From a virus (lineage: Duplodnaviria > Heunggongvirae > Uroviricota > Caudoviricetes): 37,623 bases of DNA. Position 1 is the stretch's first letter. Every line of letters begins with the position of its first letter. The stretch is from positions 1 through 37,623 of IMG/VR virus record IMGVR_UViG_2645727529_000001; one strand, written 5' to 3'. The translations under genes and the position numbers were made by a program. The notes under the pieces are model-generated. The model was given only the letters and a program-made list of their open reading frames with translations. It was not told the DNA's origin and did not search any database. Shown here piece after piece: positions 1 through 27,479 of the stretch.

Positions 1-1053
1 TTACGGGGTAATGCCAACCGCTGCCGCCACTTTGTCGCCACTTGGCAGCGTTGCCAGAGGATTGAAACGGAGCGCCGTTTCCAGATGATCCGGTGCCAGA
101 TGTGCGTAACGCATAGTCATTTTTATATCGTGGTGTCCGAGAATTTTTTGTAAGGCCAGAATGTTTCCACCCGACATCATGAAGTGCGCCGCAAACGTAT
201 GGCGCAGAACGTGTGTGAGTTGACCGCGAGGGAGCACGATAGACGTTTTTTCCATCACGGATAAAAATTGAAAATAGCAGTCTGTGAAGAAATTGAACCC
301 ATCAAGCGCCATGATCTCTTCGTAAAGCTCTTTACTGATAGGGATGCTTCTGTTTTTCTTCCCCTTCGTTCTTACAAAGGTAATTCGGTATTTGGTCACC
401 TGTGAACGAGTAAGATTTACGGCTTCTCGCCAGCGTGCGCCTGTGCTTAAGCATATCTTAACTACCAGTGCCAGAATTGGGTCCTGACGTTTGCAATCAG
501 CCAGTAATTCAACAATCTGCTCATGGGTAAGCCATGCCATCTCTTTTTCTGCGATGGTGAATTTTCGCATGTTCTCCAGTGGGTTCGGATACGACCATTC
601 GCCCAGGCGGGATAGTTCGCTAAAAACACTACTTAGATAGCTTTGCTCCAGGTTAATGGTGACCGGGCTTGCTCCTTTCTTCCATTTCTCGCTGAAGTAG
701 ATCTCACCTGTCAGGCGTTTATCTCGATAGTGGGCAAACATTTTAGAGGTTAGATCAGTTGCAAGGGGATTGCCCAGAGCGTCAACCATCAGCAGCAATT
801 TGTCATAGACATGCTGCCCAGCAGTCAGTGATTTACCATGTAGTTTGAACCATAGCTCAACCACGTCTTTCAGTGTTCGACGATCCACTGATTCACCTAG
901 CCAGGGCTTTGCTTCGGTTTCTTCCATCGTGTGACGCTCAAAAGCCAGTGCTTCGCCTTTGGTGGCGAATTGTTTACGCACACGACGCCCACTACGTCCG
1001 GCGGGGTAACATTCGCAAAGCCATTTTCCTGTGGTTAGTTTTCGTACAGCCAT
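1..1053 (-). CDS. int: Tyrosine integrase, P2/186 type
   Basis: ORF 1..1131; ATG at 1053 (MAVRKL...) preceded by GGAGGG RBS; stop TAA at 1-3; C-terminal ...HxxR...Y-containing catalytic region typical of phage integrases. Confidence 0.9.
   Translation of the reverse strand: MAVRKLTTGKWLCECYPAGRSGRRVRKQFATKGEALAFERHTMEETEAKPWLGESVDRRTLKDVVELWFKLHGKSLTAGQHVYDKLLLMVDALGNPLATDLTSKMFAHYRDKRLTGEIYFSEKWKKGASPVTINLEQSYLSSVFSELSRLGEWSYPNPLENMRKFTIAEKEMAWLTHEQIVELLADCKRQDPILALVVKICLSTGARWREAVNLTRSQVTKYRITFVRTKGKKNRSIPISKELYEEIMALDGFNFFTDCYFQFLSVMEKTSIVLPRGQLTHVLRHTFAAHFMMSGGNILALQKILGHHDIKMTMRYAHLAPDHLETALRFNPLATLPSGDKVAAAVGITP
19..40. repeat. att core copy (attL side), inside the 3' end of int
   Basis: cgctgccgccactttgtcgcca matches 34769-34790 at 21 of 22 positions. 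Confidence 0.6.
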
Positions 1054-1241
1054 AAAAAATGCCCTCCAATAGAGAGCATTTTTACTGTATGTATAACCAG
1101 TGTCAATGTATGAAATCCTGCGACCATACATCTCACTGAAGCCATAATGAAGTAGGCTATTCTTTTTGCTATGTGATCATGTAACTTTTGCGGTTAACCT
1201 GTGGCTCATTTTTATTTTAGGCGCAGATATAAAAGCAAAAG

Positions 1242-1433
1242 TTATCGTGAGTTTTTAGTACAGATTTTTTTGGATTTACTAATAGTTCCATCATTGCAAA
1301 CGAATTTGCCATCAGAGGTACAGTGAGAAACACCTCCCTTTTTCCCTGAGCAGGGATAATTTCTAGCATAGGTAGCTAGTGGGTTTAATAACAAAGAACA
1401 TGACAAAACCACAAAAAATACCTTACCAAGCAT
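1242..1433 (-). CDS. Small secreted cysteine-rich, lysine-rich protein (63 aa), function unknown; moron candidate in the immunity operon
   Basis: Strong RBS GGGAGG 5 nt upstream of ATG; N-terminal hydrophobic signal-like segment ([23 protein letters not shown]) then about 40 residues with 4 Cys and many Lys; lies between cI and int on the same strand. Confidence 0.55.
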
Positions 1434-1448
1434 AATTTCCTCCCGGTA

Positions 1449-2018
1449 CTATTTAACATACTTGACTGTTAAACTTATAATTTTACCAATTATTTCAATG
1501 TCTTCTATCTTACATTCAAAGGCTCTGTTTCCACCCTCGACGAAGATTCTTCCACCGGGTAAACGAGTAATGTCACGGATCGTTATTTCGCCATCAATAC
1601 TTATTACCCATTTACCATCACGTATATCATCAAATTCCTTATCACAAATAAATTCAGAATTATTATCTGTGATTACAAAAAGATTCTTGAATGCCGACGG
1701 TAGAAATTCTCTATCGAAAATATAAAAACCGTCTTCACACAAGGCCCCATCAGATAATACATATTTAGCAACTTCCATAGTATTTGTATTACCTGAAGTT
1801 TGCTTTGAACCATGCCCGGTTGTGAGCCAATTAAGCGAGGTGCCTGTTTCAAGGGCGCACTGGATTACCCATTCTGCTGGGAATGAGTCACGCATGTAGC
1901 GTGTGGCGAGTGTACTTTTAGAGATTCCTAAATGATCGCACAACGCCTGTCGAGTCTTGAATCCATAAGCTTCTACCATGCGCTCTATGGCGCCTCGTCC
2001 GCCTTTCTCCAAATTCAT
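1449..2018 (-). CDS. cI: CI-type immunity repressor (186-like)
   Basis: ORF 1449..2024 (GTG at 2024); ATG at 2018 with GGAG RBS; N-terminal HTH-like segment (RQALCDHLGISKSTLATRY); position divergent from the early lytic operon. Confidence 0.8.
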   Translation of the reverse strand: MNLEKGGRGAIERMVEAYGFKTRQALCDHLGISKSTLATRYMRDSFPAEWVIQCALETGTSLNWLTTGHGSKQTSGNTNTMEVAKYVLSDGALCEDGFYIFDREFLPSAFKNLFVITDNNSEFICDKEFDDIRDGKWVISIDGEITIRDITRLPGGRIFVEGGNRAFECKIEDIEIIGKIISLTVKYVK

Positions 2019-2042
2019 GGTCACTCCAAGTGAACTTTTATC

Positions 2043-3948: not shown

Positions 3949-4802
3949 GCACCATCCTGAAATGGGCGGGAAATAAAACTGCCATAATGTCCGAACTGAA
4001 AAAACATCTTCCTGCTGGCCCGCGACTGGTTGAACCTTTCGCGGGTTCCTGTGCTGTGATGATGGAGACGGATTATCCCAGCTATCTGGTTGCGGATATT
4101 AATCCTGATTTAATCAACCTCTATAAAAAGGTTGCCGCTGATTGTGAATCGTTTATATCTCGCGCCAGAGTTTTATTTGAGATCGCAAACAGGGAGGTGG
4201 CTTATTACAACATAAGGCAGGAGTTTAATTACTCAACTGAAATTACTGATTTCATGAAAGCGGTATATTTCCTGTATCTCAATCGTCACGGTTACCGTGG
4301 TTTATGTCGCTATAACAAGAGCGGGCATTTCAACATTCCCTACGGTAATTATAAAAATCCGTATTTCCCTGAAAAAGAAATTCGCGCATTTGCAGAAAAG
4401 GCCCAGCGAGCAACGTTTATCTGCGCCAGCTTTGATGAAACGCTGGCGATGTTGAAGGCGGGGGATGTGGTGTATTGCGATCCGCCGTATGACGGTACGT
4501 TTTCCGGCTATCACACTGACGGCTTCACTGAAGATGACCAGTATCACCTGGCATCTGTTCTTGAACATCGGTCATCAGAAGGACATCCGGTCATTGTTTC
4601 TAACAGTGACACATCCCTGATCCGTTCGCTGTATCGCAATTTTACTCACCACTACATCAAGGCAAAACGCAGCATCGGTGTGGCAGCTGGCGAGGGTAAA
4701 TCAGCAACAGAAATCATCGCTGTTTCCGGGCCGCGCTGCTGGGTAGGATTTGATCCTTCGCGTGGCGTGGATTGTTCCGTCGTGTACGGAGTGCGTGCAT
4801 GA
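3945..4802 (+). CDS. dam: DNA adenine methyltransferase (Dam family)
   Basis: N-terminal LKWAGNK AdoMet motif and DPPY motif ([10 protein letters not shown]); ATG 3945 overlaps the TraR-like stop. Confidence 0.85.
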
Positions 4803-7213
4803 GCTATGCTGATATGAACAACTGCAGCGGCTTTAACGAGGTCGCCGCAGCATTCTCATGGAACAGCCCGAAAAAGGCCATTAACCCTTATCTGGACCCG
4901 GCGGAAGTTGCGCCGGTTTCTGCGCTTTCAAACCTGATCACTCTATACGCTGCCGATAACGAGCAGGAACAACTGCGCCGCGAGGCACTGAGTGATCAGG
5001 TCTGGGAGCGTTATTTCTTTAATGAATCCCGTGATCCTGTCCAACGCGAAATGGAGCAGGATAAGCTAATTAGCCGGGCAAAGCTGGCGCATGAGCAGCA
5101 GCGTTTTAATCCAGACATGGTCATTCTGGCGGACGTTAACGCCCAGCCTTCCCATATCAGCAAGCCGCTGATGCAACGTATTGAATACTTCAGCAGCCTG
5201 GGCAGGCCAAAGGCTTATTCCCGCTATTTGCGTGAGACGATTAAGCCATGTCTGGAACGACTGGAGCATGTACGCGACAGTCAGCTATCCACTTCTTTTC
5301 GCTTTATGGCAAGCCATGAAGGGCTGGACGGCCTGCTGATCCTGCCTGAAATGAGTCAGGATCAGGTGAAGCGCCTGTCTACCCTTGTTGCCGCGCATAT
5401 GAGCATGTGCCTTGATGCAGCTTGTGGTGATTTGTATGCCACCGATGACGTTAAGCCAGAAGAAATCCGCAAGACATGGGAAAGGGTGGCGGCGGAAACC
5501 CTGCGTCTGGATGTCATCCCTCCTGCGTTTGAGCAACTCCGCCGGAAAAGAAACCGCCGTAAACCCGTACCCTATGAACTCATTCCGGGTTCGCTGGCGC
5601 GTATGTTGTGCGCCGACTGGTGGTATCGGAAATTATGGAAGATGCGTTGCGAATGGCGGGAAGAGCAGTTGCGTGCTGTTTGCTTGGTCAGCAAAAAAGC
5701 ATCTCCCTATGTCAGCTATGAAGCCGTGATGCATAAACGTGAGCAGCGCCGTAAGTCGCTGGAGTTTTTCCGTTCTCATGAACTGGTGAACGAAGACGGC
5801 GACACGCTGGATATGGAGGACGTGGTAAACGCCAGTAGTAGCAACCCGGCGCATCGCCGCAATGAGATGATGGCATGTGTTAAAGGTCTGGAGCTTATCG
5901 CGGAAATGCGCGGTGACTGCGCCGTTTTCTACACCATCACCTGTCCGTCACGTTTCCATTCCACGCTAAATAACGGCAGGCCCAACCCGACTTGGACAAA
6001 TGCGACGGTAAGACAAAGCAGTGATTATCTGGTCGGCATGTTTGCTGCATTTCGTAAGGCGATGTACAAAGCCGGATTGCGCTGGTATGGCGTGCGGGTG
6101 GCTGAGCCGCATCATGACGGTACAGTTCACTGGCACCTGTTGTGTTTTATGCGCAAAAAAGACCGCCGCGCCATCACTGCATTACTGCGTAAGTTTGCCA
6201 TCCGTGAAGACCGCGAGGAGCTGGGCAATAACACGGGGCCGCGCTTTAAGTCTGAGTTGATTAACCCGCGCAAAGGAACGCCGACAAGCTACATCGCGAA
6301 ATATATCAGTAAGAACATTGACGGGCGTGGTCTGGCTGGCGAGATCAGCAAGGAAACGGGTAAATCCCTGCGTGATAACGCTGAATACGTGAATGCCTGG
6401 GCGTCTCTGCATCGTGTTCAGCAATTCCGCTTCTTTGGCATTCCGGGGCGTCAGGCTTACCGTGAACTGCGATTGCTGGCTGGTCAGGCGGCAAGGCAAC
6501 AGGGTGACAAAAAAGCAGGTGCGCCGGTACTGGATAACCCGCGCCTTGATGCAATCCTGGCTGCTGCTGATGCTGGTTGTTTTGCCACCTACATCATGAA
6601 GCAGGGCGGCGTACTGGTTCCCCGTAAATATCACCTCATCAGAACTGCTTATGAAATCAACGAAGAGCCGACCGCCTATGGCGATCACGGCATTCGTATT
6701 TATGGCATCTGGTCACCTATTGCAGAGGGCAAGATCTGCACTCATGCCGTGAAGTGGAAAATGGTTCGTAAGGCCGTTGACGTTCAGGAGGCGGCAGCCG
6801 ACCAGGGCGCTTGCGCCCCTTGGACTCGTGGCAATAACTGTCCCCTTGCTGAAAATTTGAACCAACAGGAGAAAGATAAATCAGCTGATGGGGACCCCAG
6901 AACGGACATTACCAGCATGGATGACAAGGAGTTGCACGATTACCTGCACAGTATGAGCAAAAAAGAGCGCCGGGAACTGGCAGCAAGGTTACGCCTGGTG
7001 AAACCGAAACGGCGTAAAGACTACAAACAGCGAATTACAGACCATCAGCGACTGCAGCTCGTGTATGAGCTGAAGTCCAGAGGATTTGATGGCAGCGAGA
7101 AAGAGGTTGATTTACTCCTTCGCGGAGGCAGTATTCCGTCAGGAGCAGGCCTGCGTATCTTCTATCGGAACCAGCGTTTGCAGGAAGATGATCAGTGGCG
7201 GAACCTGTATTAA
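4799..7213 (+). CDS. A: Replication initiation endonuclease gpA (rolling-circle HUH type)
   Basis: HUH-like HWH ([10 protein letters not shown]) and Tyr motif YIAKYISK; about 800 aa; ATG 4799 overlaps the dam stop. Confidence 0.9.
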
Positions 7214-7305
7214 TTACGCGGGTTAACAATTCGTGCTCTTAATAATACCAGGCATATCAGGCTGATGAACGTAAAAAAACGTTTTACATCAGTAAGATTA
7301 TTATA

Positions 7306-7325
7306 TACTGTAAATATAAACAGTG
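7306..7325. promoter_or_regulatory. LexA (SOS) box
   Basis: TACTGTAAATATAAACAGTG: CTGT-N8-ACAG, matching the LexA consensus at every position that defines it; about 40 nt upstream of the tum-like ORF. Confidence 0.7.
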
Positions 7326-7366
7326 GTTATGCATACAGTATTGCGTGTGGTGTCATAGGAGGAAAG

Positions 7367-7555
7367 ATGCAGGACTATTTTTTGGAGTCTTTGAAGCTCC
7401 AGCGCATTGATTTTTTTCTTAAGCTTGTAGCGGCTAGTGAGTGTAGTGATGAAGAGAAGGGGCTGGCTTTGCAGTGGGTTTCTGAACTAACAGATGAACT
7501 CATGGCAAAAATCAGAACCCACGAATACAACCGCTCAATGGATGTCATCAGTTGA
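7367..7555 (+). CDS. Small SOS-controlled protein (62 aa), possible Tum-like antirepressor N-terminal module
   Basis: AGGAGG RBS 4-9 nt upstream of ATG 7367; directly downstream of the LexA box; occupies the 186 tum position. Confidence 0.45.
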   Translation: MQDYFLESLKLQRIDFFLKLVAASECSDEEKGLALQWVSELTDELMAKIRTHEYNRSMDVIS

Positions 7556-7565
7556 GGTGACTTTT

Positions 7566-7799
7566 ATGCGCATTGAAATAATGATCGATAAAGAGCAGAA
7601 GATTAGCCAGTCTATCCTGGACGCCCTTGAATCCGAGCTTTACCGCAATCTGCGCCCCCTGTATCCCAAAACGGTAATCCGTATCCGTAAAGGTAGCTCT
7701 AACGGTGTGGAACTTACCGGACTGCAACTGGACGAAGAAAGAAAACAAGTGATGAAAATTATGCAGAAAGTGTGGGAAGACGACAGCTGGCTGCATTAA
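7566..7799 (+). CDS. DinI-family protein
   Basis: 77 aa, MRIEIMIDK...ILQ..WEDDSWL resembles E. coli DinI in length and conserved C-terminus; GAGG RBS. Confidence 0.75.
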   Translation: MRIEIMIDKEQKISQSILDALESELYRNLRPLYPKTVIRIRKGSSNGVELTGLQLDEERKQVMKIMQKVWEDDSWLH

Positions 7800-7807
7800 G
7801 AAACGTT

Positions 7808-7837
7808 GCCCCCAAGAAGATTCATTCGAATGGGGGC
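7808..7837 (+). terminator. Hairpin after the dinI-like gene (7-bp G/C stem), weak terminator candidate
   Basis: gccccca...tgggggc inverted repeat; no strong U-tract. Confidence 0.3.
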
Positions 7838-8127: not shown

Positions 8128-10020
8128 ATGCACAATACGTACATCAAAGACTATATAGAATATTACCTTAGCCTTAAAACTGAACCTCAATACGCCATTA
8201 TGCTTAAAGGTGCTTGGGGATCAGGTAAAACTTGGTTCATTGAACGAGTTCTTGAAGAATATAAGCAAAAGCATTCAGAGTTCAAATTTCTTAAAGTGAG
8301 TTTGTATGGCGTCAACTCTATTGAGCAGATTGAAGATGAGTTCTATCGTCAACTTCATCCTATTCTATCAAACAAAGCCCTTATCTTTGGTGCAAATGTA
8401 CTAAAAAATACGCTTAAGGCTACTTTCAAGATCGATTTCAATGGCGATAATAAGTCTGACGTAGATGTCAATGCCAGTGTCCCCACCATTAATCTTAGCG
8501 ACTTTAGCAGAGAACCAGATGGTTTTGTGCTGGTCTTTGATGATATCGAGAGAGCTGGTATAGATTTACCAATCTTATTTGGATATATAAATCACTTTGT
8601 AGAAGTAAACGGATACAAAGCGATCCTGGTTGCCAATGAAGAAGAAATAATCAACAGAGAAAAGCGAATAAATAATGATGATGAGAAATCTAGCAGTGAA
8701 TACATAAGAACAAAAGAAAAGCTTGTAGGTAAAACATTTGAAGTAACGTCAGATTTACCTAGTGCTTGTAATGTTTTCTTGGGCGTAATTAGTAGTTTAC
8801 ACGTTGCTAATATATTTAAAGAAGATATGCAGACCATAGAACACCTCTATGTGTCGGCGAAATATAATAATCTAAGACATTTGAGGCAGTTCTTTCTTGA
8901 TGTACAACGCATCATTTCCCTTTTGGGAGATAAATATGTCAGCAACGACGATTTTATGAAAGTATTTTTCCAGCAGTTATTAATTTTCTCGATGGAGTAC
9001 CGGGGAGGGAACCTTAACTACGAGGATTTCAATTCAATCGGCAATGTAAATTATAGTATGTTTTTAGATAAAGGGCGTACCAAAACTAAGTATGACATGA
9101 TCGTCGAGAAATATTCATCACCTGTATTAACCGAGACGTTACTGGATGGTGCGTACTGGAGAGAGCTAATCTGTGATGGAAAGGTAACGCATGATCTTCT
9201 CGCTCAGCTGGATATTACGCGATTTTTTAGAAGCACCGATGCCCAAGCATGGGAGTATTTGTGGAACTATCGAGAACTTAATGAAACTATGCTTAATGAA
9301 CAGTACGCCATTGCCAAGGATAATCTATTTTCAGGTAAGATCACTTCCTTAGGTGAACTCCTGATGACCGCGAGTATTTTGCTGGCATTGGCGAAAGAAG
9401 GTTTAACCACAGATGCTGTTGATGACATTATAAATGAGACAAAACATCATATAGATATTTATTACAATGGATTAGGACCTGAAGATATACATCAGGAGTA
9501 TGCGCAAAGACATTATAATGAGTTAATGGCATGGCGTGGCTTTGGTTTTCTTGACAGGGATAGCGATGAATTCAAACTCATTATTGAGCATATTAAGATA
9601 GCGCAGAAGAAACGGTTTGATGAATCAATTCCGGAGTTTGCATTGAAGTTCAGCGATGAGTTGCAAAGAGGGAATTTATCGTTTGTATCTGAATTGTGTC
9701 ATTCTAATAATAGGCAGCTAAATCTTCATAACGTGCCTTTTTTACACTTGGTTTCTCCTGAAGTTTTCATTGAAAGCTATAGGAAACTTGACCCAATCAT
9801 CATGAGGAAACTGGCATTTAGCTTGAGGGATCGTTATTCTGATAGGGATGCCAGAACCAGACTGACCGAAGAATACAACTGGTTGATTAGCCTAAAAGAG
9901 ATAGCTGTAGATTTCACTCAAAACGCAGCCAATAACTCCTTTCAGGTTTTTCATGTAAAGTTTTTTATTGACTATGCACTAACTAATGCAATCAAATTAT
10001 TTACTGAGGGAACTGATTAA
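8128..10020 (+). CDS. KAP-family P-loop NTPase (630 aa), cargo gene at the tin/old-equivalent hotspot
   Basis: Walker A GAWGSGKT near the N-terminus, Walker B-like VLVFDDIERAG; strongly AT-rich versus backbone; single gene with its own terminator. Confidence 0.75.
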   Translation: MHNTYIKDYIEYYLSLKTEPQYAIMLKGAWGSGKTWFIERVLEEYKQKHSEFKFLKVSLYGVNSIEQIEDEFYRQLHPILSNKALIFGANVLKNTLKATFKIDFNGDNKSDVDVNASVPTINLSDFSREPDGFVLVFDDIERAGIDLPILFGYINHFVEVNGYKAILVANEEEIINREKRINNDDEKSSSEYIRTKEKLVGKTFEVTSDLPSACNVFLGVISSLHVANIFKEDMQTIEHLYVSAKYNNLRHLRQFFLDVQRIISLLGDKYVSNDDFMKVFFQQLLIFSMEYRGGNLNYEDFNSIGNVNYSMFLDKGRTKTKYDMIVEKYSSPVLTETLLDGAYWRELICDGKVTHDLLAQLDITRFFRSTDAQAWEYLWNYRELNETMLNEQYAIAKDNLFSGKITSLGELLMTASILLALAKEGLTTDAVDDIINETKHHIDIYYNGLGPEDIHQEYAQRHYNELMAWRGFGFLDRDSDEFKLIIEHIKIAQKKRFDESIPEFALKFSDELQRGNLSFVSELCHSNNRQLNLHNVPFLHLVSPEVFIESYRKLDPIIMRKLAFSLRDRYSDRDARTRLTEEYNWLISLKEIAVDFTQNAANNSFQVFHVKFFIDYALTNAIKLFTEGTD

Positions 10021-19680: not shown

Positions 19681-21432
19681 CTATTGGTTGAATATAAAGC
19701 TGATAATATTTTCAGGAGTGAGCTCTATGTTTTTTTTATTAAGTTTTTGAATGTACATTTTATATTTCATTTCAACGTTTCGGAAGCCTTGCGCAACAGA
19801 AAGTATTTCTACAGGATGAGATGAAAGCTTTATTAAGGAGTTAATGACTGCATCTAGGTAGATGTGAGCATGTTCAACTAAAACATTTGTTTTTGATGGG
19901 GTTTTTCCAGTGTGAACTATCAAGTTTCTAGTTCTATATATTCTCCTAATTTGCCAGTTGATTCTTTCTGCATGATTTTTAAGTGCCTGATACATAGTAT
20001 CAGTTGAGGAAATTAAATTGCTAATATATTCAAATCTCTCTTTCAATAACGGAAATTGTGATAGTTCTATCTTAAACTGATTGATGCTAGGGGCATGTTC
20101 TTGCGAAGCAACAAGAATTACAAATGATTTGGCTGCATCGCTATCTCCAATTAGTCTTAGAAGTGACATGGTTCGAGGATGATTCCATCGTTGTAAGTCT
20201 TTTATAAGATTCCTTACTAGGTCTTCAATATAATTCAGGTTTAAAAATGGTGTTAATGAATTAACGATATGTTCTATCGTGGATTGTTCTTCTTTTTTTG
20301 ATTCGTCGGGGATGAGTGATTCAATAGCAATCCATAAATTTAAAAGCTGATTTTCTACAGCATTTGTCTGTAGTGCCATTGAATGTAATTGTACACTTCT
20401 TATGAATTTATTGAAAGAATCCTTGCGCATTCTGAAATTATTCATGAATTGTTCGAGTCTTCTGCTTGCGTGTTCCTGAACCAGATCCTTGCAGCGGTGC
20501 ATTGGGTTTATGCTGCTTCTTATATTGATTTTTTCACCATTTTCACTAACTACAATGTTCTCTGCAGACCATGATGCTTCTTGCTTATGATGATAGAGAG
20601 AAAGCAAAGTTGATGCGAGCTTTAAGTTTCTTTCAGCTACCCTTCTAGCCGTGAATGGATCAAGTGCTTTAACATGCTTAACTAAAATAGTTCGTTGTTC
20701 ATGATTATCGAAGAAATCTGTTTCATTAATATTTTCGGGGGTTTCAAGAACAACCTCAATTTCTAATTGTGATAAGCATGGAGTAATATAACTAAAAGAT
20801 TTTTCAGCATTGAAATAAACTGAATATTCTTGTGTCTCTGAGGGGATGTTCTCTAGGAATGTAATAATCTCTTCATTTGAACTGATCTCTCGTTCTCTTT
20901 GGAAGAAATGTTTTTTTAGACTTTCCATCAAATATTCTTGACTTAATCCTTTTGATATTAGATGGGTAATCAACAGTCTTGTAAACTTTCGAATTTTATT
21001 TGGGTTGTATTCTGAAGTTATTGTAGAGCAAAGTTCACTGATGAGTTTGCTTTCATAATTACCAACATTAAGTTGAACTCTCAGTAACTCAAGAGTTATT
21101 TTTAGATTTTTATTTCCTAACTGATTGTTTTGGAGTTGATCTAAAAATGAACCTAAAGGGTTTTTTAGAAGACTGATTGCGATGTCATCATTCTTAATAT
21201 TTTTAGTTAATTCGTCAATGACGTGGGATATATGTGCGGGGCTTATGTTGCCTTTTTCTATATCATCGATTGTTGATATTGCTTCTATACATAAACTTGG
21301 AGTGTTCATTATAGAAGGTTTATATGTACTATGGGTGTAATCAAAGAGAAGTTCCTCCATTAACTCGGTGAAATAAATAAGCGCAGTGCATTGTTCAATA
21401 TGATTCCAGTTGTGTAGTCTTCTAAATTTCAT
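19681..21432 (-). CDS. Large AT-rich cargo protein with C-terminal HEPN-like Rx4H motif; candidate abortive-infection or defence RNase
   Basis: ORF 19681..21552 (TTG start); preferred ATG at 21432 (MKFRRL...) leaves the P_V promoter region free; motif RIYRTRNLIVHTG near the C-terminus; convergent with S and divergent from V at the P2 orf30 position. Confidence 0.6.
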   Translation of the reverse strand: MKFRRLHNWNHIEQCTALIYFTELMEELLFDYTHSTYKPSIMNTPSLCIEAISTIDDIEKGNISPAHISHVIDELTKNIKNDDIAISLLKNPLGSFLDQLQNNQLGNKNLKITLELLRVQLNVGNYESKLISELCSTITSEYNPNKIRKFTRLLITHLISKGLSQEYLMESLKKHFFQREREISSNEEIITFLENIPSETQEYSVYFNAEKSFSYITPCLSQLEIEVVLETPENINETDFFDNHEQRTILVKHVKALDPFTARRVAERNLKLASTLLSLYHHKQEASWSAENIVVSENGEKINIRSSINPMHRCKDLVQEHASRRLEQFMNNFRMRKDSFNKFIRSVQLHSMALQTNAVENQLLNLWIAIESLIPDESKKEEQSTIEHIVNSLTPFLNLNYIEDLVRNLIKDLQRWNHPRTMSLLRLIGDSDAAKSFVILVASQEHAPSINQFKIELSQFPLLKERFEYISNLISSTDTMYQALKNHAERINWQIRRIYRTRNLIVHTGKTPSKTNVLVEHAHIYLDAVINSLIKLSSHPVEILSVAQGFRNVEMKYKMYIQKLNKKNIELTPENIISFIFNQ

Positions 21433-21476
21433 ATTAATACCTTGTTTTGTGAAGCTTGAATTTACCTTTAGCGCAT

Positions 21477-21498
21477 TGTTTGTTGCTTCATACAAACA
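21477..21498. promoter_or_regulatory. Ogr/Delta-type late-promoter site(s) for P_V (two overlapping TGT-N12-ACA dyads)
   Basis: TGT 21477-21479 with ACA 21492-21494, and TGT 21481-21483 with ACA 21496-21498; 43-64 nt upstream of the V start. Confidence 0.55.
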
Positions 21499-21540
21499 TG
21501 GTTTGTTTGTGATCTCAAGTGTTTGATTAAGAATTTGAGA

Positions 21541-22119
21541 ATGAACGTACAACTCACGGAAATCATGCGCCTTATCACCAATCTGATCCGCACAGGGGTA
21601 GTCACCGAAGTGGACCGGGAAAACTGGCTTTGCAGGGTGAAAACGGGCGAGCTTGAAACCAACTGGATCAGCTGGCTGACGCTACGTGCCGGAAATGCCC
21701 GGACATGGTGGCGACCATCGGAAGGTGAGCAGGTGGTGCTGCTGAGTCTGGGAGGCAATCTGGAAACCGCCTTTGCGTTGCCCGCTGTCTATTCGAATCA
21801 GTTCGCGCCACCTTCGACGTCGGCGGACGCCTGCGTGACAGAACATCCTGACGGTGGCTGGTTTGAATACGAACCCGCCACCGGGCGCTGGTATGTCAGG
21901 GGCATCAAATCCATGGTCATTGAGGCTGCCGACAACATCACCCTGAAAACCAGTGAGTTTGTGCTGGAGGCTGACCGCACGCGTATTAACAGCGAAGTAG
22001 TGATCAATGGTGGTGTTACCCAGGGCGGCGGTGCAATGAGTTCTAACGGAATTGTGGTTGATGCACATCAGCATACTGGCGTCCTGAAAGGCGGCGACAC
22101 AACCGGAGGCCCGGTATGA
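21541..22119 (+). CDS. V: Baseplate spike protein gpV
   Basis: ATG 21541; P2 V-like. Confidence 0.85.
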   Translation: MNVQLTEIMRLITNLIRTGVVTEVDRENWLCRVKTGELETNWISWLTLRAGNARTWWRPSEGEQVVLLSLGGNLETAFALPAVYSNQFAPPSTSADACVTEHPDGGWFEYEPATGRWYVRGIKSMVIEAADNITLKTSEFVLEADRTRINSEVVINGGVTQGGGAMSSNGIVVDAHQHTGVLKGGDTTGGPV

Positions 22120-25473: not shown

Positions 25474-26075
25474 TGCATAAAGCAATATTAAATAGTGAGC
25501 TTATTGCAACAAAGGCAGGGGATGTTACCGTTTATAACTACGATGGTGAAACACGGGAATATATTTCCACGTCAACTGAATATCTTGCTGTTGGTGTCGG
25601 TATTCCGGCATGTTCCTGTCTTGATGCACCTGGCATACATAAGGTTGGTTATGCAATCTGTCGTTCTGTGAATTTAAATTCATGGGAATATGTGCCAGAT
25701 CATCGCGGTGAAATCGTCTATAGCACCGAAACAGGAGAATCGAAAGAAATCACAGCTCCGGGTGATTATCCTGAAAATACAACCACTATCGCCCCGTTAA
25801 CGCCATACGATGAATGGAATGGTGAGAAATGGGTGACAGATACCGAGGCACAGCACGGCGCAGCAGTAGATGCAGCAGAAGCACAGCGCCCGTTGCTGAT
25901 TGATACTGCAATGGCCTCCATCAGTCTGATTCAACTGAAATTACAGGCCGGACGGAAGCTGACGCAGGCAGAAACAATCCGCCTTAACGCTGTGCTGGAT
26001 TACATTGACGCGGTGACGGCAACAGATACCAGCACAGCGCCGGATGTCATCTGGCCTGAACTGCCGGAGGCGTAG
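25473..26075 (+). CDS. G: Tail fibre assembly chaperone gpG (expressed orientation)
   Basis: 200 aa; follows H with ATGA overlap; G-like conserved C-terminus. Confidence 0.8.
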   Translation: MHKAILNSELIATKAGDVTVYNYDGETREYISTSTEYLAVGVGIPACSCLDAPGIHKVGYAICRSVNLNSWEYVPDHRGEIVYSTETGESKEITAPGDYPENTTTIAPLTPYDEWNGEKWVTDTEAQHGAAVDAAEAQRPLLIDTAMASISLIQLKLQAGRKLTQAETIRLNAVLDYIDAVTATDTSTAPDVIWPELPEA

Positions 26076-26508
26076 GCCATTCAATATCTGGCGCACCGGA
26101 AGTATCGATCAGCTCCAGTGCGTCCAGATAATCCAGCCACAAATTATATTGTGCCAGTTCCTCACCTTTCAGACGACCGATAGCTGCTTTACCAGGCCAT
26201 TGCTTACCGTTCATGTATTCGTTGGCATGGTCAATTCTCGACTTTTTCTCTGAGTCAGCCGCAGCAAGTTGTTCTTTATGCGTAGGTGACGGAAGATCTA
26301 CCCAGCAAGGCAACCCATCATCACCAATGCCACGCATTTTACCCTCAGGAGCGTTTCCCATGAAAACCAGTGCATCTTCAGCATTTATATTGATGCCGTC
26401 TGACGGCCATGTGCCAGCAGTTAAATAATCATATTTCAGTGCCACAAGATAAAAAGCATTTTCCGTCGGGCTGAATACATAGTCGACCATTAATATCCCA
26501 CTCCCCAT
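26047..26508 (-). CDS. Alternative tail fibre assembly chaperone (G'), inverted cassette
   Basis: 153 aa; C-terminus (...DALELIDTSGAPDIEWP) parallels G (...DAVTATDTSTAPDVIWP); opposite strand inside the invertible segment. Confidence 0.7.
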   Translation of the reverse strand: MGSGILMVDYVFSPTENAFYLVALKYDYLTAGTWPSDGININAEDALVFMGNAPEGKMRGIGDDGLPCWVDLPSPTHKEQLAAADSEKKSRIDHANEYMNGKQWPGKAAIGRLKGEELAQYNLWLDYLDALELIDTSGAPDIEWPTPPAVQAR

Positions 26509-26846
26509 ACTGCCACTGTTGAATTAGATTTCGTGTATGCGCAAGCGGCTTTGAATTTGACCCGGTCAACAATCGCTGCGCTAACAAAAGGGGCTCCATT
26601 AGTCGCGTAGATCACAGAATTGACCAGCGAAGGATTGATGGAAAGGCAAGCATTAGGAAAGGCAACCGGCCATGAGTCATCAACAACGACCATATTACCG
26701 TCGGTAGATTGCGGCACTGATAGCGTCTTCCACTGAAGCAATGCTATTCGTTGTACTCCACCAATTAATACTGGAATAGTGATGTTACCTGCACTGCTGG
26801 CTAATGCTGTCGCAGCAGGCATTTTCGCTGCTTCTCCCAAACCAAC
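26490..26846 (-). CDS. Alternative tail fibre C-terminal cassette (Hv'), silent in this orientation
   Basis: Minus-strand ORF whose VGLGE codons coincide with the right hix-like site, mirroring LGLGE of H at the left site; would fuse to the H constant part after inversion. Confidence 0.6.
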   Translation of the reverse strand, partial: VGLGEAAKMPAATALASSAGNITIPVLIGGVQRIALLQWKTLSVPQSTDGNMVVVDDSWPVAFPNACLSINPSLVNSVIYATNGAPFVSAAIVDRVKFKAACAYTKSNSTVAVWGVGY

Positions 26847-26857
26847 GTTTATGAAAA
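26832..26857. repeat. hix/gix-like 26-bp inversion crossover site (right)
   Basis: TTCTCCCAAACCAACGTTTATGAAAA; inner 14 bp are the exact inverted repeat of 25013-25026. Confidence 0.65.
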
Positions 26858-26906
26858 TGCAGAGATAACGGCTAACTGGCATCATCTCCGGTTTTTATTC
26901 AGGGGG

Positions 26907-27479
26907 ATGATCATGCTTATTGGCTATGTACGCGTGTCAACAAATGACCAGAACACCGATTTGCAACGCAATGCACTGAACTGTGCGGGATGTGAGCGGA
27001 TTTTTGAGGATAAAATCAGTGGCACCAAGTCCGACAGACCGGGGCTGAAAAAGCTGCTCAGGACACTATCGGCAGGAGACACGCTGGTTGTCTGGAAGCT
27101 GGACAGACTGGGGCGCAGTATGCGGCATCTTGTTACGCTGATAGAAGAGCTGCGCCAGCGTGGCGTGAATTTCCGAAGCCTGACTGACAGTATTGATACC
27201 AGCACCCCAATGGGCCGTTTCTTTTTTCATGTCATGGGTGCCCTGGCTGAAATGGAACGCGAACTGATAGTTGAACGTACCAGGGCGGGGCTGGCTGCAG
27301 CTCGTGCTAAAGGCAGAGTAGGTGGACGCCGTCCTAAGTTGACCAGCGAACAGTGGGCACAGATTGGGCGTTTACTCGAGGCCGGAGAATCAAGACAGCG
27401 TATTGCACTGATTTTTGATGTAGGCGTTTCTACCATTTATCGAAAATTTCCGGCAAATAAGAACAATAAATCTCCCTGA
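26907..27479 (+). CDS. Serine DNA invertase (Hin/Gin/Pin/Cin family)
   Basis: N-terminal IGYVRVSTNDQNTDLQ resolvase catalytic motif and C-terminal HTH; AGGGGG RBS favours the ATG at 26913. Confidence 0.9.
   Translation: MIMLIGYVRVSTNDQNTDLQRNALNCAGCERIFEDKISGTKSDRPGLKKLLRTLSAGDTLVVWKLDRLGRSMRHLVTLIEELRQRGVNFRSLTDSIDTSTPMGRFFFHVMGALAEMERELIVERTRAGLAAARAKGRVGGRRPKLTSEQWAQIGRLLEAGESRQRIALIFDVGVSTIYRKFPANKNNKSP

What the first reader, a model, noticed from the sequence alone, without database searches (positions are those of the whole stretch)
7306..7799. Perfect LexA box driving a tum/DinI-like two-gene module (186-type SOS induction circuit)
TACTGTAAATATAAACAGTG at 7306-7325 matches the LexA consensus CTGT-N8-ACAG at every defining position and overlaps the likely promoter of a 62-aa ORF followed by a DinI-family gene. 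In phage 186 prophage induction depends on a LexA-repressed antirepressor (Tum) at this position, and I recall its C-terminal part being DinI-like. Here the two parts appear as separate ORFs in different frames (stop at 7553-7555, next ATG at 7566), either a genuinely split arrangement or a frameshift.
Basis: partly seen in the sequence, partly recalled or inferred. Interest (0 to 1): 0.5.

Follow-up and report, generated by a model that had tools for sequence, protein, structure and literature searches.

The report
Known SOS-controlled antirepressor module of a P2-like prophage
This is the ordinary DNA-damage switch of a Fels-2/186-type prophage, a LexA-repressed promoter driving a small antirepressor gene and a separate DinI-like gene, and the same arrangement has already been described and genetically tested in nearly identical phages.

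Summary
There is a LexA box at 7306-7325, a 62-aa ORF at 7367-7555, and a 77-aa DinI-family ORF at 7566-7799 in another frame.

The window is an E. coli P2-like prophage with a 186-type CI/Apl/CII immunity region. The module sits just after replication gene A, as tum does in 186.

The 62-aa protein shows no pairwise BLAST similarity to 186 Tum. Profile comparison nevertheless shows it is a remote homologue of the Tum N-terminal (antirepressor) half (hhalign 96.7%, E 4.7e-10).

The split is genuine, not a frameshift:
- It is about 97% identical to Fels-2.
- It is present as two genes in 1125 of 5426 complete E. coli genomes.
- The spacer varies from 8 to 12 nt across genera.
- In 13 of 32 loci from other genera the small gene occurs with its LexA box but without dinI.

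The literature already describes the split tum of Fels-2 and PSP3. In E. coli HS prophage DuoHS (CI 100% identical, small protein 61/62 identical), deleting this very ORF, or making LexA non-cleavable, abolishes mitomycin C induction.

Verdict: already known, low interest.

The parts
7283..7288 (+). Probable -35 hexamer TTTACA of the SOS promoter, the equivalent of 186 p95
   Evidence: It lies 17 nt upstream of TACTGT. TTTACA/TTCACA is conserved at this spacing in most of the related loci. 186 p95 is annotated as TTCACA-18-TACTGT. The generic promoter scan did not call it, because the -10 hexamer matches only 3 of 6 positions.
7306..7325 (+). LexA (SOS) box TACTGTAAATATAAACAGTG; its first six bases are the probable -10 hexamer
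   Evidence: It is the only CTGT-N8-ACAG in the window. It matches the 20-mer consensus at 17 of 20 positions, with 0 hits in 100 shuffles. It is identical in Fels-2 and E. coli HS DuoHS and conserved in 31 loci across many genera.
7321..7340 (+). Second, half-degenerate LexA-like element CAGTGGTTATGCATACAGTA that overlaps the 3' end of the full box; function not established
   Evidence: Its right half, ATACAGT, is conserved in about 22 related loci. MAFFT aligns the 186 and PsP3 LexA boxes to this element rather than to the full box.
7357..7362 (+). Shine-Dalgarno sequence AGGAGG of the small ORF
   Evidence: It lies 4 nt before ATG 7367. AGGAGG is conserved in nearly all related loci.
7367..7555 (+). 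tumA-type antirepressor gene (62 aa), equivalent to Fels-2 STM2728 and E. coli HS ECHS_RS04495
   Evidence: It belongs to phrog_698 at 3.6e-38. hhalign against the 186 Tum N-terminal family gives 96.7%, E 4.7e-10. It is 61/62 identical to the gene called tum and deleted in DuoHS. dN/dS is 0.03-0.23 against the 25 related loci where dS could be estimated. The AlphaFold2 model is a two-helix hairpin with pLDDT 87.6.
7554..7559 (+). Shine-Dalgarno-like GAGGTG for the dinI-like gene, overlapping the stop codon of the small ORF
   Evidence: The sequence is read. The hairpin 7544-7561 that would occlude it is not significant (z -1.39).
7566..7799 (+). DinI-family gene (77 aa), equivalent to PsP3 tumB and Fels-2 STM2726.1
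   Evidence: It matches Pfam PF06183 at 1.3e-22 and phrog_189 profile positions 71-148 of 151. It is 41% identical to 186 Tum 71-145 and matches PDB 1GHH at 3.6e-6.
7808..7837 (+). GC-rich hairpin after dinI; possible terminator or attenuator of the SOS transcript (weak T-run)
   Evidence: Folding gives -18.3 kcal/mol, z -2.59, with 4 of 200 shuffles folding as well. Homology to Fels-2 and DuoHS ends at the dinI stop codon, so this hairpin belongs to the cargo region.
1449..2024 (-). 186-type CI immunity repressor, the inferred target of the antirepressor
   Evidence: It has Pfam Phage_CI_repr (2.8e-33) and Phage_CI_C (2.7e-27), and its S24 peptidase hit is below cutoff. It is 33% identical to 186 CI and 100% identical to DuoHS CI.

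Best explanation
This is the SOS induction operon of a Fels-2/DuoHS-type (Peduoviridae, P2-like, 186-style immunity) prophage.

In a lysogen, LexA binds the box at 7306-7325. The box overlaps the -10 region of a promoter equivalent to 186 p95, so the operon stays off. DNA damage activates RecA and LexA cleaves itself, which derepresses the promoter. Two proteins are then made.

1. A 62-aa helical-hairpin protein. It is a remote homologue of the N-terminal half of 186 Tum and the functional equivalent of PsP3 TumA. It binds the prophage's non-cleavable 186-type CI repressor (1449-2024, minus strand) and prevents operator binding. That opens the lytic promoter and starts lytic development.
2. 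A separate DinI-family protein, the equivalent of the C-terminal half of 186 Tum and of PsP3 TumB. It is expected to bind RecA filaments and modulate the SOS signal, and it is probably dispensable for induction.

Basis of each step:
- Shown by sequence here: the box, the promoter architecture, both ORFs, the homologies and the cognate CI type.
- Shown by experiment elsewhere, on a near-identical element: the small gene and cleavable LexA are both required for mitomycin C induction.
- Inferred: direct TumA-CI binding in this lineage, and the role of DinI.
For: - **Anatomy and statistics of the box:**
- **Promoter parallel to 186 p95:**
- **Position:** the module follows gene A and the prophage carries a 186-type CI/CII.
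- **Homology of the small ORF to the Tum N-terminal domain:** PHROG cross-hits and hhalign 96.7%, E 4.7e-10, residues 4-44 against 4-44.
- **DinI identity:**
- **Near-identity to known phages:** Fels-2 (97%) and E. coli HS DuoHS, with identical LexA box, promoter and RBS. TumA is 61/62 identical and CI 188/188 identical to DuoHS.
[quoted passage not shown] ECHS_RS04495 is the 62-aa ORF upstream of the DinI-like gene.
- **Prior description of the split:** PMC3121763 states that Fels-2 and PSP3 have tum split in two by a stop codon, and that in PSP3 the upstream gene carries the antirepressor activity.
- **Conservation across genera:** the LexA box with the small ORF is found in 31 loci. dinI is present in 19 of 32 and absent in 13 of 32.
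- **Selection:** dN/dS is 0.03-0.23, indicating strong purifying selection.
- **186 annotation:** it records separate translation of the DinI-like part from an internal GTG, so two products are the rule even in the fused form.
Against: - No direct test has been done on this exact prophage.
- Pairwise sequence similarity of the small ORF to 186 Tum and to PsP3 TumA is undetectable by BLASTP. Homology rests on profile methods.
- Physical TumA-CI interaction has been shown only for 186 Tum, and the CI here is only 33% identical to 186 CI.
- The DuoHS deletion fused the start and stop codons immediately upstream of dinI, so a polar or translational effect on dinI was not formally excluded in the text I could read.
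- The PSP3 antirepressor assignment is a personal communication cited second-hand.
- The generic sigma-70 scan did not call the promoter.
Confidence: 0.9

Rival explanations
1. The two ORFs are the halves of a single 186-like fused tum gene, broken by a recent frameshift, a nonsense mutation or a sequencing error. The module would then be a pseudogene and the prophage non-inducible.
For: 186 encodes both parts as one 146-aa protein. The two ORFs here are only 10 nt apart and in different frames.
Against: - The same two-gene arrangement is found in functional phages: Fels-2, RE2010, many Klebsiella phages and DuoHS.
- It is present in 1125 of 5426 complete E. coli genomes, always annotated as two genes.
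- The spacer varies from 8 to 12 nt, so the relative frame varies across genera.
- The small ORF has its own family of about 62-aa proteins under purifying selection.
- The small ORF occurs without dinI in 13 of 32 loci.
- dinI has its own SD and ATG.
- The literature describes the split explicitly (PMC3121763).
Confidence: 0.02
2. The DinI-like protein is the real effector of induction, for example by acting on RecA or on CI. The 62-aa ORF would be only a leader or translational-coupling element.
For: The DuoHS deletion of the small ORF lies 10 nt upstream of dinI and could reduce its translation. The SD of dinI overlaps the small ORF's stop codon.
Against: - 13 of 32 related loci keep the LexA box and the small ORF but have no dinI.
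- The small ORF's amino-acid sequence, not merely its presence, is conserved (dN/dS 0.03-0.23).
- It is homologous to the Tum N-terminal part, which is present only in the full-length, CI-inhibiting form of 186 Tum. The truncated DinI-like forms are annotated only as modulators.
- In PSP3 the upstream gene is reported to carry the antirepressor activity, and dinI deletions in Gifsy prophages had no effect on induction (PMC3121763).
Confidence: 0.04
3. The 62-aa protein is needed for induction but does not work by sequestering CI. It might instead target another lysogeny factor, or promote CI degradation.
For: Similarity to 186 Tum is remote, about 20% identity over 41 columns. CI is only 33% identical to 186 CI. 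No binding data exist for this lineage.
Against: The homology is colinear over the whole conserved core. The module position, the regulation and the cognate repressor family are all the same as in 186, where Tum inhibits CI DNA binding (PMC7708051). A divergent antirepressor paired with a divergent CI is what co-evolution of a binding pair predicts.
Confidence: 0.04

Closest known systems
Split tum locus of Salmonella phage Fels-2 (STM2728 + STM2726.1) and of E. coli HS prophage DuoHS (ECHS_RS04495 'tum' + ECHS_RS04500)
   Same: It is essentially the same element. Nucleotide identity is about 97% across promoter, LexA box, RBS and both ORFs, and the small protein is 61/62 identical. Compared with DuoHS, the CI repressor is identical and the chromosomal insertion site next to ybjL is the same. 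In DuoHS, SOS dependence and the requirement for the small gene are shown experimentally (PMC12055606).
   Different: Only a few point differences. The cargo immediately downstream of dinI differs: a KAP NTPase here, other hypothetical genes in Fels-2 and DuoHS.
Salmonella phage PsP3 tumA/tumB
   Same: The architecture is the same: LexA box, a small tumA of about 60 aa, a short spacer, then a 77-aa DinI-like tumB after gene A. tumA is annotated 'UV induction of prophage'. The upstream gene is reported to be the antirepressor (PMC3121763).
   Different: PsP3 TumA belongs to a different sequence family (phrog_1993). It is close to the 186 Tum N-terminus and is linked to the window protein only at profile level (E 2.2e-3). 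The LexA box sits at about -38 rather than -59 from the start codon.
Coliphage 186 SOS operon (p95-tum-orf97)
   Same: Both have a LexA-repressed promoter whose -10 hexamer TACTGT lies inside the LexA box. Both sit after gene A and act on a 186-type CI. The N-terminal antirepressor part and the C-terminal DinI-like part are both represented.
   Different: In 186 the two parts are fused in one 146-aa protein, with additional internal starts giving DinI-like truncated products. Here they are two cistrons. The N-terminal parts are only remotely similar and CI is 33% identical.
LexA-controlled dinI-antirepressor operons of the Gifsy prophages (dinI-gfoA/gftA-irsA)
   Same: The logic is the same: a LexA box, a small antirepressor that inactivates a non-cleavable repressor, and a co-transcribed DinI homologue (PMC3121763).
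   Different: The gene order is reversed (dinI first). The antirepressors and repressors belong to unrelated families, and the phages have a lambdoid rather than a P2-like backbone.

Membership tests
186-type SOS/tum induction module | A LexA box overlapping the promoter of the operon | tested here: met
   The box at 7306-7325 matches the 20-mer consensus at 17 of 20 positions, with 0 chance hits. It overlaps the TACTGT -10 hexamer, 17 nt from TTTACA, as in annotated 186 p95. It is conserved in 31 loci.
186-type SOS/tum induction module | LexA actually binds the box and represses; the operon is derepressed by DNA damage | not testable with these tools
   The only evidence is indirect. lexA(Ind-) blocks induction of DuoHS, whose control region carries the identical LexA box, -35 hexamer and RBS (PMC12055606).
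186-type SOS/tum induction module | Homology of the product to the N-terminal (antirepressor) part of Tum | tested here: met
   BLASTP is negative. At profile level it is positive: 186 Tum 1-70 against phrog_698 gives 5.9e-6, the window ORF against phrog_8554 gives 2.4e-8, and hhalign gives 96.7%, E 4.7e-10.
186-type SOS/tum induction module | A cognate 186-type CI repressor that is not a RecA-cleavable S24 peptidase | tested here: met
   The CI at 1449-2024 has Phage_CI_repr and Phage_CI_C. Its Peptidase_S24 hit is only 16.3 bits, below the 23.3-bit cutoff. It is 33% identical to 186 CI.
186-type SOS/tum induction module | The product binds CI and blocks its DNA binding | not testable with these tools
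   This is inferred from 186 (annotation; PMC7708051) and from the loss of induction in the DuoHS tum deletion.
186-type SOS/tum induction module | A single fused Tum polypeptide (antirepressor plus DinI-like domain) | tested here: not met
   There are two cistrons, with a stop at 7553-7555, a 10-nt spacer and a +1 frame shift. The module therefore belongs to the split (PsP3/Fels-2) variant, not the fused 186 form.
Split tumA/tumB arrangement (PsP3, Fels-2) | A small upstream ORF and a separate 77-aa DinI-like ORF, a few nucleotides apart, after gene A and behind a LexA box | tested here: met
   Nucleotide identity to Fels-2 is 97%.
DinI family (PF06183) | A significant match to the DinI domain over its full length | tested here: met
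   Pfam gives E 1.3e-22 and 80.4 bits against a 24.2-bit cutoff, covering profile positions 1-63 of 63. PDB 1GHH matches at 3.6e-6. The score is below the NCBIfam equivalog cutoff for chromosomal DinI (42 against 111 bits), so it is a phage paralogue rather than the host dinI orthologue.
DinI family (PF06183) | Binds RecA filaments and modulates the SOS response | not testable with these tools
   This is inferred from the family only.

The most novel reading that the evidence does not exclude
The least ordinary reading still open concerns the control region and what lies downstream of the module, not the module itself. There are two possibilities.

1. The conserved second, half-degenerate LexA-like element at 7321-7340 overlaps the full box. 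It could be a functional extra half-site that sets a different SOS threshold for Fels-2-type prophages than for 186-type prophages.
2. The SOS transcript could read through the weak hairpin at 7808-7837 into the PDC-S49 KAP-NTPase defence candidate at 8128-10020. That would make this cargo gene damage-inducible, as orf97 is in the 186 SOS operon.
Probability: 0.15. Interest if true: 0.35.

Novelty: already known. Interest (0 to 1): 0.1.

Why it matters
It matters mainly for annotation. The 62-aa gene is labelled 'hypothetical protein' (or, wrongly, 'levan regulatory protein') in more than a thousand E. coli genomes and in most phage records, while the neighbouring dinI-like gene often receives the 'SOS induction modulator' label. 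The data here justify naming the small gene a TumA-type, LexA-controlled antirepressor and predicting that this prophage is SOS-inducible. No new biology is implied.

Tried and rejected
- **Pairwise BLASTP.** The 62-aa ORF against 186 Tum and PsP3 TumA gave no alignment.
- **Shallow hhalign.** Profiles built from close homologues (over 75% identity) gave only P 0.0018 and 14.8% probability. The representative search supplied divergent members, and the result then became significant.
- **Other libraries.** Pfam, NCBIfam, PADLOC and PDB sequence searches found nothing for the 62-aa ORF.
- **Promoter scan.** The generic promoter scan found no + strand promoter. The promoter was assigned by analogy with annotated 186 p95 and by conservation.
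- **Intercistronic hairpin.** The terminator-like hairpin at 7544-7561 is not more stable than shuffles (z -1.39). I did not treat it as an attenuator.
- **Related-loci search.** The search for related loci with the diverse alignment failed because there was no conserved stretch. A narrower alignment worked.
- **Literature.** Bunny et al. 2002 (PMC151935) is not held, so its content is cited only through PMC3121763. The literature search for 'TumA/TumB' returned only irrelevant papers.
- **Frameshift or pseudogene reading.** Considered and rejected; see the rival explanations.

Full report
**1. The observation**

- TACTGTAAATATAAACAGTG lies at 7306-7325.
- An AGGAGG ribosome-binding site lies at 7357-7362.
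- A 62-aa ORF runs from ATG 7367 to a TGA at 7553-7555.
- After a 10-nt spacer, a 77-aa ORF starts at ATG 7566 and ends at 7799, in a different frame (199 nt between the two starts).

The minimal motif CTGT-N8-ACAG occurs once in the window. That alone is weak evidence, because 34 of 100 shuffles contain at least one. The full 20-mer LexA consensus with up to 3 mismatches also hits only here, and no shuffle gives a hit. The second ORF is a clear DinI-family protein: Pfam PF06183 at E 1.3e-22 and solved DinI 1GHH at E 3.6e-6.

**2. Context**

The window is a complete P2-like prophage in an E. coli chromosome.

- An integrase lies at the left edge (1-1131, minus strand).
- A 186-type CI repressor lies at 1449-2024 on the minus strand. 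It has Phage_CI_repr plus Phage_CI_C and no S24 peptidase domain above threshold.
- An Apl-sized ORF follows, then a CII (PF06892), a Dam methylase and replication gene A at 4772-7213.
- The module under study comes next, followed by cargo, then the portal/terminase/capsid/tail genes, ogr, and the host gene ybjL.

CI is 33% identical to 186 CI. The module therefore sits where tum sits in 186, and the prophage has the kind of repressor that Tum acts on.

**3. Promoter**

The generic scan found no + strand promoter. The 186 record, however, annotates p95 as -35 TTCACA, an 18-nt spacer, and -10 TACTGT, with the -10 being the first six bases of the LexA site. The window has TTTACA (7283-7288), a 17-nt spacer, and TACTGT (7306-7311), which is the same design. 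The TTTACA element, the box and the AGGAGG site are conserved in position across the related loci. Repression by promoter occlusion is therefore the straightforward inference.

**4. Is the 62-aa ORF a Tum N-terminal homologue?**

BLASTP against 186 Tum and PsP3 TumA gives nothing. Pfam, NCBIfam and PDB have no match. Profile methods do find the relationship.

- The ORF is a full-length member of phrog_698 (3.6e-38). It also hits phrog_8554 (2.4e-8) and phrog_1993 (2.2e-3).
- PsP3 TumA is the phrog_1993 type. 186 Tum residues 1-70 hit phrog_1993 (1.5e-23), phrog_8554 (3.4e-12) and phrog_698 (5.9e-6, residues 6-44 on profile positions 6-44).
- A first hhalign with shallow profiles was inconclusive (P 0.0018).
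- The exhaustive representative search then supplied members down to about 35% identity. With these, hhalign against the 186 Tum N-terminal family gave 96.7% probability and E 4.7e-10 over columns 4-44 against 4-44.
- The shared pattern is E-x(5)-[QE]R[IV]-[DE]-x(3)-[RK]L-x(5)-C-x(4)-[KR]-x-x-A[LI]-x-x-[IV]-[AS]E[LI].
- An AlphaFold2 model built from the family alignment is a confident two-helix hairpin (H2-23, H28-61, pLDDT 87.6), with the conserved Cys26 in the turn.
- dN/dS against the 25 related loci where dS could be estimated is 0.03-0.23, so it is a real protein under purifying selection.

**5. Split or frameshift?**

The arrangement is genuinely split.

- The 700-bp region is 96-98% identical to Fels-2, RE2010, many Klebsiella P2-like phages and several E. 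coli phages. Every annotated record shows two genes.
- It is present in 1125 of 5426 complete E. coli genomes, again as 'DinI-like family protein | hypothetical protein | replication endonuclease'.
- In 32 loci from about 15 other enterobacterial genera, the spacer between the two ORFs is 8-12 nt, so the relative frame differs between lineages.
- In those loci dinI is present in 19 and absent in 13, while the LexA box and the small ORF remain.
- PsP3 is annotated with tumA ('similar to 5' end 186 tum; UV induction of prophage') and tumB ('similar to dinI and 3' end of 186 tum').
- Lemire et al. [quoted passage not shown] - Even in 186, the record annotates separate DinI-like products from internal starts, including a GTG preceded by AAGGAGG, described as modulators of SOS induction.

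**6. Experimental evidence on a near-identical element**

E. coli HS carries prophage DuoHS at the same chromosomal site, between rcdA and ybjL. Its CI is 188/188 identical to the window's. Its control region carries the identical LexA box, -35 hexamer and RBS, with only a few base differences elsewhere in the upstream region, and its small protein is 61/62 identical.

The Phollow paper (PMC12055606) made an in-frame deletion of 'tum' and a lexA(Ind-) allele. Both abolish mitomycin-C-induced lysis and virion formation. Its Supplementary Data give the locus tag ECHS_RS04495. In the RefSeq record that tag is the 62-aa 'hypothetical protein' immediately upstream of the DinI-like gene.

**7. Mechanism, with status of each step**

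- LexA occupies the box and occludes the -10 region. This is inferred from sequence, from the 186 parallel, and from the lexA(Ind-) phenotype in DuoHS.
- DNA damage leads to LexA cleavage and transcription. This is established SOS biology.
- The TumA-type protein is required for induction. This is shown in DuoHS.
- It acts by binding CI and preventing operator binding. This is shown for 186 Tum (annotation; PMC7708051) and inferred here from homology and from the matching CI family.
- The DinI-like protein binds RecA filaments and tunes the SOS signal. This is a family-level inference. Dispensability is suggested by the 13 of 32 loci without dinI and by the Gifsy dinI deletions.

**8. Comparison and verdict**

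The module is a member of the split tumA/tumB variant of the 186-type SOS operon. It is the same element as in Fels-2 and DuoHS. It fails only the 'single fused polypeptide' feature of the 186 prototype. It is already known, and interest is low.

The only loose ends concern neighbouring features. One is a conserved second half-LexA-like element at 7321-7340, whose position corresponds to the single box of 186, PsP3 and Pantoea-type loci. The other is the possibility that the SOS transcript reads into the defence-candidate cargo that begins right after dinI.

Noticed in passing
window 7321-7340: A second, half-degenerate LexA-like element, CAGTGGTTATGCATACAGTA, overlaps the 3' end of the full box. 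Its right half is a perfect ATACAGTA; its left half reads GTGG instead of CTGT. The ATACAGT half is conserved in about 22 related loci whose full box lies at about -65. In 186, PsP3 and Pantoea-type loci the single full box lies at this more proximal position (about -36 to -39). It may be a relic of the ancestral box or a functional extra half-site.
   Followed up: partly
loci L011, L015, L023, L027-L035, L037 (match at 2501-2686 in each): In 13 of 32 related loci from other genera (Citrobacter, Pantoea, Erwinia, Tatumella, Klebsiella and others), the LexA box and the tumA-type ORF are present but no DinI homologue is detectable within 2.5 kb downstream. The antirepressor is the conserved core and dinI an optional passenger.
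   Followed up: partly
protein P0259 (52 aa, from the representative search): In this sequence, tumA-type residues 1-36 run directly into DinI-like residues (…LAIQ|QKISQATLGALESELC). It appears to be a natural deletion that fuses the two cistrons, or a fragment of one.
   Followed up: no
window 8128-10020 (+): A 630-aa KAP-family P-loop NTPase (Pfam PF07693, 2e-21) matches the PADLOC candidate defence system PDC-S49 at E 5.6e-161. It begins 328 nt after dinI on the same strand, exactly where homology to Fels-2 and DuoHS ends. That slot is the P2-type cargo hotspot, occupied in 186 by orf97 within the SOS operon. Possible SOS-dependent read-through was not tested.
   Followed up: partly
window 19681-21552 (-): A 622-aa ORF on the opposite strand is inserted between the tail genes. 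DuoHS has no gene there. It has no Pfam domain but hits PADLOC ApeA at E 2.1e-12, so it is probably a second anti-phage cargo gene in the other P2 hotspot.
   Followed up: partly
window 26047-27479: A Hin/Cin-type serine invertase (26907-27479, Resolvase plus HTH_7, 2.3e-53) sits next to minus-strand ORFs for a tail-fibre assembly protein (26047-26508) and a tail-fibre C-terminus (26490-26885). This looks like an invertible host-range segment, which DuoHS lacks.
   Followed up: no
window 1242-1433 (-): A small 63-aa ORF between int and cI has a hydrophobic N-terminus and several cysteines ([16 protein letters not shown]…), so it looks secreted or lipoprotein-like. It is also annotated as hypothetical in E. 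coli HS (ECHS_RS23290). It may be a lysogenic-conversion gene.
   Followed up: no
public annotations of the 62-aa ORF: Some records name this protein 'levan regulatory (domain) protein', and some give the 'SOS induction modulator' label to the neighbouring dinI-like gene. Most call the small ORF hypothetical. Several gene callers extend it to 96 aa from the upstream ATG at 7265, which would run through the promoter and the LexA box.
   Followed up: partly
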